From positions 1 through 53,697 of the forward strand of contig JAUXHI010000002.1 of NCBI GenBank assembly GCA_030621645.1: DNA of 53,697 bases, given 5' to 3'. The position numbers are program-made. The stretch's first letter is position 1. Every line of letters starts with the position of its first letter. Of the stretch, positions 25,701 through 31,700 are shown in pieces. This DNA is from Mycoplasmataceae bacterium (GTDB taxonomy: Bacteria > Bacillota_I > Bacilli_A > Mycoplasmatales > Hepatoplasmataceae).

Positions 25701-28700
25701 CGCTTGGAAGCCAGTAATGATTATTTGAGTAAAGGATCCAATAACAATTAGTAATACGATTCAGAATACTCTTGATTTAAAAAGTTCTCATGCTGAAATT
25801 TCCATATATGGTTTTTCATATGCAACAACTGAAGCTCTATCTACATAGGCTTCATCTAAATTATTAAATCTTTCAATTATATCTTCAGATTCAATAGCAC
25901 CTATTTGCTTCCCTGAAGAAGAAACAATTGGAACTGATGGAATATCATATTCCAACAATAATTCTTTAGCATTATCAATATAATCATTTGTAGTCAATGC
26001 ATTAATTTTTATAGTGAATGTAGAAACCTTTTGAGCATCTTTAGCAGTGAATAACGAATAGGTTTTTATATAACCTACAAATATGTTTTTTGAATCATGA
26101 ACAAAAATATTACCAACGATTTCCTTTTCGCCATCTTTAATTTTTTTCTTTAAATCTTCTTTTGCTTGCTTAATAGTTGATGAATTTTTTATTGAAACAA
26201 AGTCAATGTTCATATTGAAACCAATAGAGCCTTGTTTATATTTTAAAACTGAGTTTAGTTTTTTTCTTGTTTCCAGGTTAACAACATCAAGAATTTTTAA
26301 AACAATATTTTCTGGAAGTTCTTCCAGAATATCAACTGTTTCATCAACATATAAAATTTTAAACATTTCATTAATTTCTTCATCAGAAAAGGCGTTTATT
26401 ATTTTTTCTTGTTTTTCAGTACTAAGCTCATCAAATAATTCTGATGCTTGTTGTTGTTTTAATTGTCTAATTAATAATAATGTGTCTGATAAAGGTCAAT
26501 CTTCAATAAATAGATATAAATCTCTAGGGTGAAAAAGGTCAGCAATTTTTCTTACTTTACCAACTTGTTTTTCATTTACGTATTGTTTAAGTGCCTGAAG
26601 TAATTTTTTATCTTCCATAGTCCTAAATTTCTTCTACAATAGAAAGAACTAAATCGAACATATCAACAAAAGCTGTTCTTCTTTCATCTGCAGGTAATTC
26701 TTGCTTTTTAGCAATATGATCGCCAACAGTTAAAACTGTTAAAGCTTTTTTATTTAAAGCATTAGCTATTACATAAAGGGCATATGCTTCCATTTCAGCT
26801 CCTAGGATATTTCTTTCCTCAAATCAGTCCATAGATTTAATATTATGTGTTTGATAAAATCACATTGATGAATGTATTTTCCCATTAACTGATTTATTTG
26901 AAAGATTTAGTTCTTTAACTTTTCTAGTTGCAATTTCTATTAATTCTTTATCAGCAGAAGCAGTGTCTTTTTCTTCTCCAAAAGCTGCTCCATAATTAGA
27001 TTCTGTTCATGCTTCCTCTGCAATAATAATATCTAATAGATTTAAATTTTTAGAGTATGCTCCAGCAGAACCAAATCTTATAATTGTTTCTACATCATAA
27101 GATTTATAAAGTTCATAGGCATAAATACCAATTGATTCCATTCCCATACCATGCCCCATTACAGTTATTGTTTTGCCAGATGGCGTGTTCCCTGTAAAGA
27201 CAAACATATTTCTAATTGAATTTACTTTTTTAATATCAGTTAGAAAAGTTTCAGCAAAAAGCTGAGCTCTAAGTGGATCTCCGGCCATTAAAACAATTTT
27301 TGCTATATCTTCTTTATTAGCTGTCATATGTGGTGTTGCCATTTAGTTTCCTCATTCCTTTGAAAGTTCTGTATATAATACAGAAATTTTTGCTACTCTT
27401 CATGTTCCTGATCTAAAGAATGTTACTTTTTGAGTTTCTTCTGAAACAACAATCACTAATGCTGAAGATTCTTCAGACAAACTTAATGCCGATCTGTGTC
27501 TTGTCCCAAATGTTTTAGGTATTTTTTTATTTTCAGATAATTTTGTAATGAAAACTGACGCTTTAGATAATCTGCCGTTTTTAATAACAATTGCTCCATC
27601 ATGTAAAGGTGATTTTTTATTAAAAATTGCTTCAATAATTTTCCCATTAATTACTGAATCCATTGGTTCTGAATCAACAATAAAAGGAGTAACAGAATTT
27701 TTATTATCAATAATTATTGTTGCTCCTGTTTTAATTTTTCTTAAATTTAAAATAGCTTTTTCTACTTCTTTAATAACAATTTTTCTATCAATATTTTTGT
27801 TTTCAGGATGGAAAATATATTTAAGGATTAAAATTATTTTTGAAAAAACTTTGTGTCCTAACGCAGAGAAAATAATAATCACTGAGATTATTATCCAAAA
27901 TGAAGGCTGTCTTAAAAAAGTAGTTGAATCCATAATTTTATTTTACAAAATAATTATAAAGGAAAAGGAACCTATAATCTCATTGCTTTTATTATTATTT
28001 TTGTCTCAGGCTTAGAAGCAGGGTTCAAAAGTGTTTCAACTGAAAATTCTTTTCTTTTAAATAGATAATATTCAGGATTTATAAATGCAACAAATGATTT
28101 AGTTGTTTTTTCTGCATCTAATAAAGCAATTCCAAAACCTTGTGTTCTGAATCATTTAATCCTTGATTCAAGTAATTTAGAAGCCTTGCCTGTTTTAATT
28201 CCCAATATTAATGATGAAGGATCTGTAATTCTCTTTATTTTCTTGATAAATCTTTCTCTATTAAAATTCAATTGTGAAATATGTTGCACTGGGTATTCGA
28301 AAACTAATTTAGCATCTTTGAAGTGATCAAAAGTTTTAATGGCTTTTAAAGCAATAAATCTTTTCGCTATGTCATCATTCTCCCCTTCAGGAGCTAGATA
28401 GTAATATACGTCACTGACATATGGCGATCTTATAAAATCTATCTTAGAATCAATAATTTTTTCTGGTAAATAAAATGCTTGTGACCTTTCATAAGATGTC
28501 CTTCTTTTTTTGGCATAATCAAAGAAAAAAATTGGTGAGGTGTTTTTAATTCCTACAACATTGTGCTGCAATTCATGAGACTTAAACATTAACTCATTTA
28601 TATTTGTTGAATCAACTCCATAAATAGTTGCATATCCTTTCACTGTTTGTGATGATGTAGAAGCTGTTTCAATAATATTTTGTAACTCAGTTAAATAACC

Positions 28701-31700
28701 AAGTGATTTTTGTTTTCTTGAATTTGCTTTTTTAAATTTTGTAAGATCAACATCTCCAAAAGTCATAGGTACAAATAATGAATGGTGATTGCCACTAGAT
28801 TTAAAGAATACTGCATCGCTATAATTTTTCTCAATTTGTTTTTTAAGTCAACTTAGTTTGTTGATTAAATCTTTCTTTGTAAAATTGTCAAAAGCAAAAG
28901 TTAAGAATAAACCAAATTGGTATCTATTGTCTTTTATTATTTTATTTAGTTCTTCTTTAGCTTTTGATAATTTATAAAATGATGTACTATCTATATTATC
29001 AAATAATTCTTGCTTATTATATGAAGCATAAATTCTTTCTATTGAGTAAATGATAATGTCAAATATAACTAAAGTAACTGATAGAAATAATAGATTTGAG
29101 AAAACCATTATGAATCTATCAGCGATTAATTCTGTATATGTTGCAACAATAATTGTTGACAATATAAGTCAAGTTGATAATGTAATAAGTGAACTAACGA
29201 ATAGTTTCACGCCATAATTCTTAGTTAAAATGTTTGTATTCAATACAACAATCAATGCCAGTATAGTTGTTATTCCCACTTGAATAAAAGGTACATATGA
29301 AATGAATTCTGTTCATACATCAGTTTTGATGAATAAACCTATAAGTGCCCCTATTAATACGGCAAGTGATAATTTTGGATTAATTAAAATACCAATTACC
29401 GGAATAATAATTATAGCAATTGAATAGTACTCTATTCCATCGAAACTAATTATCCCAAATAATAATTCTAATAGTAAAAACGAACCTAATGTTACTAATC
29501 AAATAAATACATTTCTATAAATGTTCATTTTATTGTGATAAACTCTTAAATATTCTTTTATAAAGAAAAATAATAATATTCCTAAGAATGCTACAAGTAT
29601 ACTGAATGAGATAAATTGTCCTCAGTTCATAATTTTAACTAACAAATATGGTGGAGGTGGCGGGGATTGAACCCGCGTCCAAGAATAAAATACTGTTTAG
29701 GAAATCTACAGTTTAAGAGTCATTATTAAAACAAAAAAGTTTTAAATCCACGTATAAACTCGTCAGCTTGTTTCCACTATTTATGAACGGGCAAATCCTA
29801 ACTCTAGTGGTAAGTTAAGTACCGCTGAACCTCTTAAGCGTATGCTGCAGTTAAAGTGTTATCTGCAAAGATCGCAGGCTCAATGTTTTTTTCGTTTCCG
29901 AATATGTTTATTTTTGATATTATGGTCTATCAGACCACTGCACCCTAAATTATTCTATAATTGTCGAAGCCACGTCACCCCCATATGGGTACATTGGACA
30001 CATATTTATTATATAATAAAAAACAAGCTTATACCACTTGTTTGATTTCCCTCTGTGAATCTCTTTGTATTTTAGTCTCACGCTTGTCTGATTTTGTTTT
30101 ACCTTTGGCAAGAGCTATTTCTATTTTAATTAGACCTTTTTTATTTATATAAAGAATGGTAGGAATAATTGTTAATCTTTGTAATTTAACTCCATCACTT
30201 AATTTCTTTAGTTCTCTTTTGTTTAATAAAAGTCTTCTTGATCTTTTTTCTTCATGTTGTTCAGTATAAGTAATATGATTTGAAACATTCATATTTATTA
30301 ATTCAGCATTACCATTTCTAATAGTTACATATACTGTATCTAAAACAACTTTACCATCTTTAATTGATTTAACCTCACTACCTAAGAGAGAAATACCTGC
30401 TTCAAAAGTATCCTTTAAAATATAATCAAATTTTGCTCTTTTATTTTTAGTGATAATCTTCATATTAATTTAATACTAAATCAACAACGCCTCTAACGAA
30501 GTCATAACCAGTAATTCTTACTTTAATCTGCTCGCCTAATTTATAGGTTGTTTTACTTTCTTTACCAATAATTGAAAATTTTGGTGCATCATAATAAAAT
30601 TCATCACCAGTTAAACTTTCAAGTCTAACTAATCCTTGAATTTGTTTTTTAAGATCAACAAAGAATCCAAAACTAGTAACTGAAGTTATAGTTACCTCAA
30701 CTTCTTCTCCAATATGTCCATCCATATATCTAGCTTTTTTAATATCAGAAAGTTTTCTCTCGGCCATCATGGCAGCTCTTTCTTTATCTGAAAGTCATTT
30801 AGAAGAATGTTCTAGATATTCATCTTTTTCACCATCTGAATATTCAACACCTTTGATATAGTAATTTTTAATAATTCTATGAACAATCAAATCAGGATAT
30901 CTTCTAATAGGCGAAGTAAAGTGTAAGTAATTTTTAATACCTAATGCATAGTGCCCTTTATCTTCAGGAGAATATATTGCTTTTTCCATTGATTGAATCA
31001 TGAATTTTTTAAGAATATCTCCATAAGGCTTATCTTCTATTTCAGTTACGAAATGAGCAAGATCTTTTGAGGTTATCTTATCAATTGGTTTAGTGGAAAA
31101 CTCACCAAAGATTTTTGTTATCTCAAAAAATTGAGTTAATTTGTTTTCGGTTGGTTTACCATTTATTCTATACATTCCAGGTAATTTTTTTTGTTCTAAA
31201 AAATTAGCAACACTTTGATTAGTAATCACCATTAAATCTTCAATTAATTTTTCTGATTCAGTTTGGTATTTTTCAATAAGTTTAGTTGGATTACCATTAG
31301 CATCTAAAGTAAATTTAGTTTCTGGTAAAACAAAATCAATCATGCCTTCTTTAATTTTTTTGATTCTTATAATTTTTGATAATTCTTTTGCATCATTAAT
31401 CATAACTGTCACATCTCTGTCATCTCTAATTTGTGGCGTTCCGCCTTTGAAATATTCATCAACTTCTTCATAAGTAAGTTTGTATTTTGATTTAACAATA
31501 GTTTCCTTTAAGTCAACATTTATAACTTCGGCATCTTTATCTATTTCCATTATTGCTGTCAATGTGTATTTTCTTGTATCGGGGTTAAGCGATGCCAAAT
31601 TATTTGACAAGATTTCAGGAAGCATTGGTATAACATTATCAATTAAGTATGTAGAAGTTCCTCTTTCATAAGCTTCATCATCAATTTTTGAATTTGCTTT

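What a model noticed while it worked through the whole genome (the two positions that open the first line are those of the whole stretch)
27343..29630. Degenerate GGDEF-EAL membrane protein coupled to diadenylate cyclase
g00198 (552 aa, unannotated) is a multi-TM protein with a GGDEF-fold and an EAL-fold domain that both lack their catalytic motifs. It sits directly upstream of the c-di-AMP synthase g00197 throughout the family. It is a relic of c-di-GMP signalling in mollicutes and a candidate regulator of c-di-AMP synthesis.
Evidence so far: Model and VIA-align: the top hits are GGDEF-EAL, EAL and GGDEF structures (PA0575 Z11.7, FimX, LapD, RbdA), with residues ~205-370 GGDEF and ~380-535 EAL. 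Pfam EAL hits 2 of 10 family members, best E 3e-5. No GG[DE]EF or EAL motif in the nine sequences inspected, and the 93-sequence consensus conserves other residues (SIYG). It is immediately upstream of the DAC gene in 10 of 10 family genomes where found and in 4 of 4 genomes of family f13. The profile finds 155 clusters and 17 of 61 genomes in the order.
(Added by a program. Inside this text positions count along the whole contig: contig position 1 is position 1 of the stretch shown here. "Call 12" and the like, gene names such as g00115 and contig names such as C1 are that model's own, and its searches are not shown. The text may have been shortened before it was handed on; [...] marks where a part breaks off. 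The agent that wrote the report below was given it as the finding of a first reader that could run no searches.)

Follow-up and report, generated by a model that had tools for sequence, protein, structure and literature searches.

The report
Dead GGDEF-EAL membrane pseudoenzyme of mollicutes
Many wall-less bacteria keep a membrane protein predicted to be built from c-di-GMP enzyme folds with every catalytic motif lost; most genomes that carry it have no detectable c-di-AMP synthase, so it likely works as a membrane anchor for another protein rather than as that enzyme's regulator.

Summary
The 552-aa gene (27972-29630, code 4) folds confidently (pLDDT 89.9, pTM 0.75) into seven membrane helices, a GGDEF domain and a shortened EAL barrel. 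No GG[DE]EF motif occurs in 115 database homologues or 83 loci. It lies directly upstream of an intact diadenylate cyclase in 11 of 11 assessable family genomes. New here: the membrane part resembles the ECF S-component fold plus one extra helix, the 5TMR-LYT layout.

Dedicated coupling to the cyclase is not supported. Of 298 genomes of the order, 103 carry the gene and 60 of those have no detectable DAC; 142 DAC genomes lack a match. The gene is under purifying selection (dN/dS 0.04-0.12) in a genus with neither DAC nor MgtE. Its commonest neighbour is tmRNA upstream (47 of 83 loci); downstream lie dac (28), mgtE (26) or trmB (12), as deletions from an old rnr-smpB-ssrA-X-dac-mgtE order would give. 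No intact diguanylate cyclase was found in 299 genomes.

Best reading: a nucleotide-independent membrane adaptor like staphylococcal GdpS, partner unknown. New variant of a known kind; interest 0.45.

The parts
27972..29630 (-). Gene X (g00198), 552 aa under code 4: 7 membrane helices + degenerate GGDEF + degenerate shortened EAL
29022..29630 (-). Membrane domain, residues 1-203: helix H0 (3-30) plus six helices predicted to have the ECF S-component fold (5TMR-LYT-like layout)
28518..29015 (-). GGDEF-fold domain, residues about 206-371; SGNHH (279-283) in place of GGDEF, F245 at the metal-binding Asp, YGVDS (337-341) at the YPxDG element
27975..28484 (-). EAL-fold domain, residues about 383-552; no EALxR, EITE, DDFG, KID or AEGVE; last helix and strand missing
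27953..27958 (-). TATAAT, a possible -10 box for dac, 19 nt before its ATG inside the 38-nt spacer
   Evidence: consensus match only
27343..27933 (-). Diadenylate cyclase (g00197), one N-terminal membrane helix + DAC domain, DGA and RHR intact; CdaM-like layout
26623..27342 (-). deoD-like purine nucleoside phosphorylase abutting dac (name recalled from the sequence, not scanned)
25059..26618 (-). MgtE magnesium transporter
29649..29982 (-). tmRNA gene; its CCA end lies 18 nt before the X start codon
30029..32531 (-). smpB (30029-30463) and rnr (30465-32531), the upstream part of the conserved cluster (names recalled from the sequences, not scanned)

Best explanation
X is a membrane protein, predicted to carry GGDEF and EAL folds, that has lost the catalytic motifs of both and likely works as a nucleotide-independent anchor, holding a cytoplasmic partner other than the diadenylate cyclase at the membrane. 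Shown here: the loss of motifs, single-copy presence across several families of the order, purifying selection, and independence from DAC and MgtE in gene content. Predicted: the folds, including a membrane domain of H0 plus S-component type. Inferred: it descends vertically from an active membrane GGDEF-EAL protein; when c-di-GMP synthesis was lost it was kept as a scaffold, as S. aureus kept GdpS to recruit DgkB. The docking surface would be in the GGDEF domain, where conservation is highest (YG-x-H-S loop and a family-specific N-x4-R-x3-D insert), while the EAL barrel erodes by lineage. Its place before dac is likely inherited gene order (rnr-smpB-ssrA-X-dac-mgtE). The partner is not identified; leads are RNase R/SmpB, MgtE and lipid enzymes.
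For: Folds. Motif loss. No c-di-GMP source: Pfam GGDEF over cut-off in 2 of 299 genomes, one a GdpP and one a 78-aa fragment in a 75% complete, 4% contaminated assembly. Gene content: of 103 X genomes, 19 have DAC and MgtE, 24 DAC only, 41 MgtE only, 19 neither. DAC absence rechecked with a mollicute DAC profile: 0 of 10 genomes, control 5 of 5. Selection: dN/dS 0.04-0.29 in 16 of 17 pairs (one saturated); 0.042-0.121 in four g37 pairs lacking DAC and MgtE, below trmB in the same pairs. The tree recovers f1 (support 88), f13, f9, f15 (99-100) and f5 (92, drawn open). Conservation peaks in GGDEF: G338 115 of 115, Y337 112, N303 102, D311 95, R308 89. Precedent: GdpS (5TMR_Lyt + GGDEF) recruits DgkB without its catalytic residues (PMC11962490; abstract, passages and Discussion).
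Against: No partner is shown. The GdpS partner does not transfer: Pfam DAGK_cat was over cut-off in 0 of 5 X genomes. The window's own protein has K308 and G311 at two of the conserved insert positions, and the insert is missing in some lineages. X has no match in 195 of 298 genomes and is broken or truncated in several (G235, G250, G295, G219, G177), so it is dispensable for many. In family f1 it evolves faster than dac (dN/dS 0.27-0.29 against 0.04-0.09). X-dac adjacency persists in 28 of 83 loci across f1, f13 and four f5 genera, including lineages without MgtE. The 5TMR link is weak by sequence. Surface exposure of the conserved residues could not be computed, so they may be structural.
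Confidence: 0.5

Rival explanations
1. One reading: X is a regulator of the neighbouring cyclase, a CdaR substitute that binds it in or near the membrane and tunes c-di-AMP synthesis, at least in lineages that keep X-dac.
For: X is directly upstream of dac in 28 of 83 loci, in f1, f13 and f5 genera g9, g27, g45, g49; a divergent candidate sits before dac in G023. Both are membrane proteins. In f13 the 8-24 nt spacer has a ribosome-binding-like sequence. A pseudo-phosphodiesterase is reported to control a DAC in P. gingivalis (PMC13700151; abstract and passages).
Against: 60 of 103 X genomes have no DAC and 142 of 185 DAC genomes have no X. X is kept under strong selection without DAC. In nine f5 genomes with both genes they are not adjacent. 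TATAAT precedes dac in 22 of 28 junctions against 7.1 expected, versus 1 of 26 for X-mgtE and 0 of 12 for X-trmB; the box is common in this genome, though (25 of 55 short spacers).
Confidence: 0.15
2. X regulates the magnesium channel MgtE, as part of an ancestral X-dac-mgtE ion-homeostasis unit that outlived c-di-AMP.
For: X abuts mgtE in 26 of 83 loci, in f15 and in f5 genera g29 and g35, mostly with short spacers; mgtE lies two or three genes downstream in f1 and f13. MgtE as a c-di-AMP target is recalled, not tested.
Against: 43 of 103 X genomes have no MgtE over cut-off. Deleting dac from X-dac-mgtE gives X-mgtE passively, and dac-mgtE persists without X.
Confidence: 0.1
3. X is still a small-molecule receptor: the S-component-like pocket senses an outside ligand, or the dead domains bind a nucleotide (host c-di-GMP, GTP, pGpG), as LapD and FimX do.
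For: The architecture is that of a 5TMR receptor (PMC11109136 passages). A complete EAL barrel is kept in f15. R424, R308 and D311 are conserved.
Against: The membrane domain has no invariant or nearly invariant column in 73 sequences and no NxR motif. No cyclase makes c-di-GMP in these genomes. The EALxR arginine and DDFG are lost and the window's barrel is incomplete.
Confidence: 0.15
4. X serves ribosome rescue or RNA decay, tethering RNase R or SmpB-tmRNA to the membrane and made from the tmRNA precursor transcript.
For: 53 of 83 loci abut ssrA, smpB or rnr, in several orders (ssrA-X, X-smpB, rnr-X, X-rnr). In 10 of 11 f1 loci the first in-frame ATG lies 6-30 nt after the tmRNA CCA end.
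Against: These genes are universal, so co-occurrence says nothing; 30 of 83 loci have lost the link; strong ssrA read-through alone could keep a gene there.
Confidence: 0.1

Closest known systems
GdpS of Staphylococcus aureus (5TMR_Lyt + GGDEF; recruits DgkB; PMC11962490)
   Same: Multi-pass 5TMR-type membrane domain before a GGDEF domain, in an organism not known to make c-di-GMP; function independent of catalysis.
   Different: GdpS keeps GGEEF and has no EAL domain; X has lost the motif and adds a dead EAL. No DAG kinase over cut-off in 5 X genomes. No partner shown for X.
LapD and FimX (degenerate GGDEF-EAL c-di-GMP receptors; roles recalled, structures matched)
   Same: Tandem GGDEF-EAL folds without catalysis (Z 12-13).
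   Different: They bind c-di-GMP made in the same cell; X hosts have no intact cyclase and X lacks EALxR and DDFG. X shows no large extracellular domain in the model.
5TMR-LYT receptors and ECF S-components (PF07694; PMC11109136)
   Same: H0 plus six-helix S-component fold running into a cytoplasmic signalling domain; GGDEF and EAL fusions are known in this group.
   Different: No NxR motif and no conserved pocket residues; sequence similarity is borderline.
CdaR, regulator of CdaA (features recalled)
   Same: Membrane protein encoded next to a membrane diadenylate cyclase.
   Different: CdaR has one membrane helix and extracellular YbbR repeats and follows cdaA; X is unrelated, lies upstream and is often kept without any DAC.
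RefSeq 'EAL domain-containing protein' of Spiroplasma (e.g. WP_101780385.1, WP_025317873.1)
   Same: Full-barrel members of the same family, already carrying an automatic EAL label.
   Different: The label omits the GGDEF and 5TMR-like domains and the loss of catalysis; short-barrel members are unnamed or 'hypothetical protein'.
CdaM of Mycoplasma pneumoniae (for g00197; PMC5508000 passages)
   Same: One N-terminal helix plus DAC domain with DGA and RHR.
   Different: NF038327 score 86.7 is below the cut-off of 225.

Membership tests
GGDEF diguanylate cyclase | GGDEF fold | tested here: met
   Z 13.1, rmsd 2.6, 140 aligned to 4urs
GGDEF diguanylate cyclase | GG[DE]EF motif and metal-binding Asp | tested here: not met
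   SGNHH and F245 in the window; motif in 0 of 115 and 0 of 83
EAL phosphodiesterase | EAL barrel fold | tested here: met
   Z 14.2, rmsd 2.9, 163 aligned of 247; Pfam EAL over cut-off in 7 of 12 distant homologues
EAL phosphodiesterase | Complete eight-strand barrel | tested here: not met
   Window protein lacks the last helix and strand; f15 forms keep them
EAL phosphodiesterase | EALxR, N, EITE, DDFG, K and EGVE catalytic residues | tested here: not met
   None in place in the window; DDFG in 1 of 83 loci and 0 of 115
LapD/FimX-type c-di-GMP receptor | Degenerate GGDEF-EAL tandem | tested here: met
LapD/FimX-type c-di-GMP receptor | c-di-GMP made in the same cell | tested here: not met
   No intact cyclase found in 299 genomes searched
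LapD/FimX-type c-di-GMP receptor | Binds c-di-GMP | not testable with these tools
   needs a binding assay
5TMR-LYT membrane domain (PF07694) | H0 plus six-helix S-component fold | tested here: met
   9 of the top 12 VIA rows are S-components (Z 8.0-9.9, 152-168 aligned, model 30/38-203), H0 unaligned; Z is moderate for a helical bundle. Foldseek best E 0.43, prob 0.89-0.92, TMt 0.52-0.55
5TMR-LYT membrane domain (PF07694) | Sequence match to the family | tested here: inconclusive
   5 of 6 fetched membrane-region hits of profile A2 carry PF07694, one is EamA; with profile A3 the EamA decoy outscored them; hhalign probability 0.6 and 4.6; not among 25 Pfam families listed for 73 members
5TMR-LYT membrane domain (PF07694) | NxR ligand motif between H1 and H2 | tested here: not met
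   No invariant or 90% column in 73 sequences
GdpS-type DgkB recruiter | DAG kinase partner in the genome | tested here: not met
   PF00781 over cut-off in 0 of 5 genomes; three sub-cut-off hits
CdaR-type cyclase regulator | Occurs only with a DAC | tested here: not met
   60 of 103 X genomes have no DAC match
CdaR-type cyclase regulator | Binds the cyclase and changes its output | not testable with these tools
   needs co-expression and pull-down
CdaM (g00197) | N-terminal helix + DAC domain with DGA and RHR | tested here: met
CdaM (g00197) | NCBIfam NF038327 cut-off | tested here: not met
   86.7 bits against 225

The most novel reading that the evidence does not exclude
X is a transporter-fold (5TMR-like) sensor whose c-di-GMP output was rewired to direct protein contact: it is the missing input of mollicute c-di-AMP synthesis where X-dac survives, and gates MgtE or another partner directly where c-di-AMP was lost. 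That would be a second-messenger-free signalling device in near-minimal cells.
Probability: 0.12. Interest if true: 0.8.

Novelty: new variant of a known kind. Interest (0 to 1): 0.45.

Why it matters
Mollicutes have almost no signalling proteins. A single-copy, selected gene of about 1.7-2 kb, built from dead c-di-GMP enzyme folds and kept in about a third of the order, points to an uncharacterised job done without the messenger. It would be a second case, after GdpS, of a GGDEF protein repurposed in organisms without c-di-GMP, and one that also carries a dead EAL domain. It corrects the automatic 'EAL domain-containing protein' label of Spiroplasma entries. The survey also conflicts with the printed statement that all mollicutes use c-di-AMP (PMC11535214 passage): no DAC was found in 78 of 78 f15 genomes.

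Tried and rejected
Complex prediction of the cytoplasmic GGDEF-EAL part with the soluble DAC domain, both from relative G006: no verdict (score 0.00, mark 0.32). Membrane segments were not included; it is not used as evidence either way. Sequencing runs for 26600-30500: no RNA holder listed. Direct Pfam and NCBIfam scans of the window protein gave nothing meaningful, nor did an EAL search of its own genome. Single-sequence homologue search found only itself. Sequence searches of solved structures were weak: best EAL row YkuI E 0.028, below designed TIM barrels. No language-model atlas comparison is available for this protein. Sequence proof of 5TMR-LYT membership failed its decoy control. Rows dropped before the count of 103: G224 and G248 (membrane-only hits to another membrane protein), G001 (weak hit to another protein); three under-cut-off MgtE rows were also dropped. 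G072, G124 and G280 were not scored by the tool. G023 holds a likely divergent X that the genome search missed (probability 48), so absences are floors. In four f7 and f14 DAC loci no X lay within about 1.5 kb. Rejected: active phosphodiesterase (motifs lost); decaying pseudogene (dN/dS well below 1); SIYG as a new catalytic motif (it is the YPxDG position). Whether protein U1 of PMC11535214 belongs to this family is untested; its 4 supplementary files gave no hit. Earlier findings of the scan: nothing. Literature searches listed no paper on this family; the library lacks most subscription papers.
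Full report
1. Observation. The window uses code 4. On the minus strand lie gdpP, dnaB, rnr, smpB, tmRNA (29649-29982), X (27972-29630, 552 aa), dac (27343-27933), deoD, mgtE and cls (names other than dac, gdpP, mgtE and tmRNA are recalled from the sequences). The cyclase matches Pfam DAC (E 1.4e-33) and keeps DGA and RHR. X has no Pfam or NCBIfam match of its own.

2. Structure of X. A model from 115 aligned homologues has pLDDT 89.9 and pTM 0.75. 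Foldseek returns GGDEF-EAL tandems first (best E 2.2e-10). VIA-align gives EAL Z 14.2 (rmsd 2.9, 163 aligned) and GGDEF Z 13.1 (rmsd 2.6, 140 aligned). Sequence agrees: 7 of 12 distant homologues pass the Pfam EAL cut-off, and the family profile finds intact membrane GGDEF-EAL proteins in other families of the class at E down to 3e-23. Aligned with those, the window protein has SGNHH for GGDEF, F245 for the metal Asp, and no EALxR, EITE, DDFG, KID or AEGVE; it also lacks the last helix and strand of the barrel. GG[DE]EF occurs in 0 of 115 and 0 of 83 sequences. The conserved SIYG is the YPxDG position. An N-x4-R-x3-D insert is family-specific (85 of 115), though the window protein has K and G there.

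3. Membrane domain. Folded alone (pLDDT 84.4), residues about 36-203 align over most of the length of ECF S-components: 9 of the top 12 rows, Z 8.0-9.9, the other three being designed proteins, with helix 3-30 left over. That is the H0 plus S-component layout described for 5TMR-LYT receptors (PMC11109136, passages). The Z values are moderate for a helical bundle and Foldseek gives no significant E-value. Sequence support is borderline: 5 of 6 fetched membrane-region hits were PF07694 proteins, but an EamA decoy outscored them with the membrane-only profile. The NxR motif is absent. I treat it as 5TMR-like by fold, not as a proven member.

4. Distribution. Profile A2 matched 106 of 298 scored genomes of the order; 103 remain after dropping three hits to other proteins. 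DAC was found in 185 and MgtE in 192, 189 over cut-off. Of the 103, 19 have both, 24 DAC only, 41 MgtE only and 19 neither. Family f15 has X in 47 of 78 and DAC in 0 of 78; full-barrel homologues of this type are named Spiroplasma 'EAL domain-containing protein' in the databases. Family f2 has DAC in 82 of 82 and no full X. A mollicute DAC profile confirmed absence in 10 of 10 genomes rechecked, with 5 of 5 controls positive. Kin are not independent, some assemblies are incomplete, and very divergent X can be missed (G023). Pfam GGDEF passed cut-off in 2 of 299 genomes, a GdpP and a 78-aa fragment.

5. Neighbours. I read 84 of the 103 loci this way (83 with an X frame; chosen for spread, not at random). 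Upstream: tmRNA in 47. Downstream: dac 28, mgtE 26, trmB 12, smpB 3, other 14. 53 of 83 abut ssrA, smpB or rnr. Genomes without X show rnr-smpB-(gap)-dac-mgtE-deoD, rnr-dac or dac-mgtE. One old order, rnr-smpB-ssrA-X-dac-mgtE, with lineage-specific deletions accounts for these patterns (inference). TATAAT lies within 45 nt of the dac start in 22 of 28 X-dac junctions (7.1 expected by shuffling), against 1 of 26 for mgtE and 0 of 12 for trmB; 25 of 55 short spacers in the window's genome also carry it, so this is modest evidence that dac has its own promoter.

6. Evolution. A quick tree of 80 proteins groups them by family, consistent with vertical descent; several branches are long and the deep forks are open. 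dN/dS by a simple counting method is 0.04-0.29 in 16 of 17 pairs, lowest in f9, g25 and g37; g37 has neither DAC nor MgtE. X is broken or truncated in a few genomes, so it is selected but not universally needed.

7. Mechanism. With no c-di-GMP source, no catalytic residues, no conserved ligand pocket and no obligatory DAC or MgtE, the simplest working role is a membrane anchor that docks a soluble protein on its GGDEF face (0.5). The direct precedent is S. aureus GdpS, a 5TMR_Lyt-GGDEF protein that recruits DAG kinase without catalysis (PMC11962490; abstract, passages, Discussion), although no DAG kinase passed cut-off in 5 X genomes. Rivals: cyclase regulator in some lineages (0.15), residual ligand receptor (0.15), MgtE regulator (0.1), tether for ribosome rescue or RNA decay (0.1). 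All functional steps are inferred.

8. Comparison and verdict. X works, by my reading, like GdpS and is built like LapD or FimX, but fails the defining tests for cyclase, phosphodiesterase, c-di-GMP receptor and CdaR. Eight literature searches listed no study of this family; passages of the M. pneumoniae and M. bovis c-di-AMP papers (PMC5508000, PMC13022847) mention no such gene. PMC11535214 (passages) notes an EAL-like membrane protein in a marine mollicute; its relation to X is untested. Verdict: observation confirmed, cyclase coupling not supported family-wide, new variant of a known kind, interest 0.45.

Noticed in passing
window 34081-36042 (-): GdpP-type c-di-AMP phosphodiesterase (GGDEF_GdpP + DHH + DHHA1), 4.5 kb upstream of X on the same strand, so synthase, hydrolase and MgtE lie within 11 kb.
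   Followed up: partly
window 29631-29648; loci L002-L010: Only 6-30 nt separate the tmRNA CCA end from the first in-frame ATG of X in 10 of 11 f1 loci (18 nt in the window, no ribosome-binding-like sequence). X may be translated from a nearly leaderless message released by tmRNA processing.
   Followed up: partly
family f15, 78 genomes: No diadenylate cyclase found in any, nor in f8 (0 of 5), f10 (0 of 5) or genus g29 (0 of 12): repeated loss of c-di-AMP synthesis in the order.
   Followed up: partly
L041-L047, upstream of dac in family f2: In six of eight f2 loci the place of X is taken by an unrelated charged protein of 136-915 aa with one membrane helix, followed by dac and usually mgtE.
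   Followed up: no
window 5996-12526 (-): Sugar-nucleotide cluster: an epimerase-like gene fused to a glycosyltransferase-like domain (650 aa), phosphomannomutase-like, UDP-galactopyranose mutase-like and galU-like genes (names recalled from the sequences).
   Followed up: no
window 14098-15657 (-): KtrB/TrkH-like potassium permease, a usual c-di-AMP-controlled system (name recalled from the sequence).
   Followed up: no
L121:1709-2944, L122:1593-2522: Membrane proteins of family f2 with no Pfam match whose C-terminal half looks like an ECF S-component by eye and weakly matches the X membrane profile.
   Followed up: partly
G235, G250, G295, G274, G219, G177, G043: X is truncated, split or interrupted by stops in these assemblies; real decay and assembly error were not told apart.
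   Followed up: no
L056:2984-4834 (G023): 617-aa multi-pass protein directly before dac-deoD, probably a very divergent X (hhalign probability 48, E 1.8e-4).
   Followed up: partly
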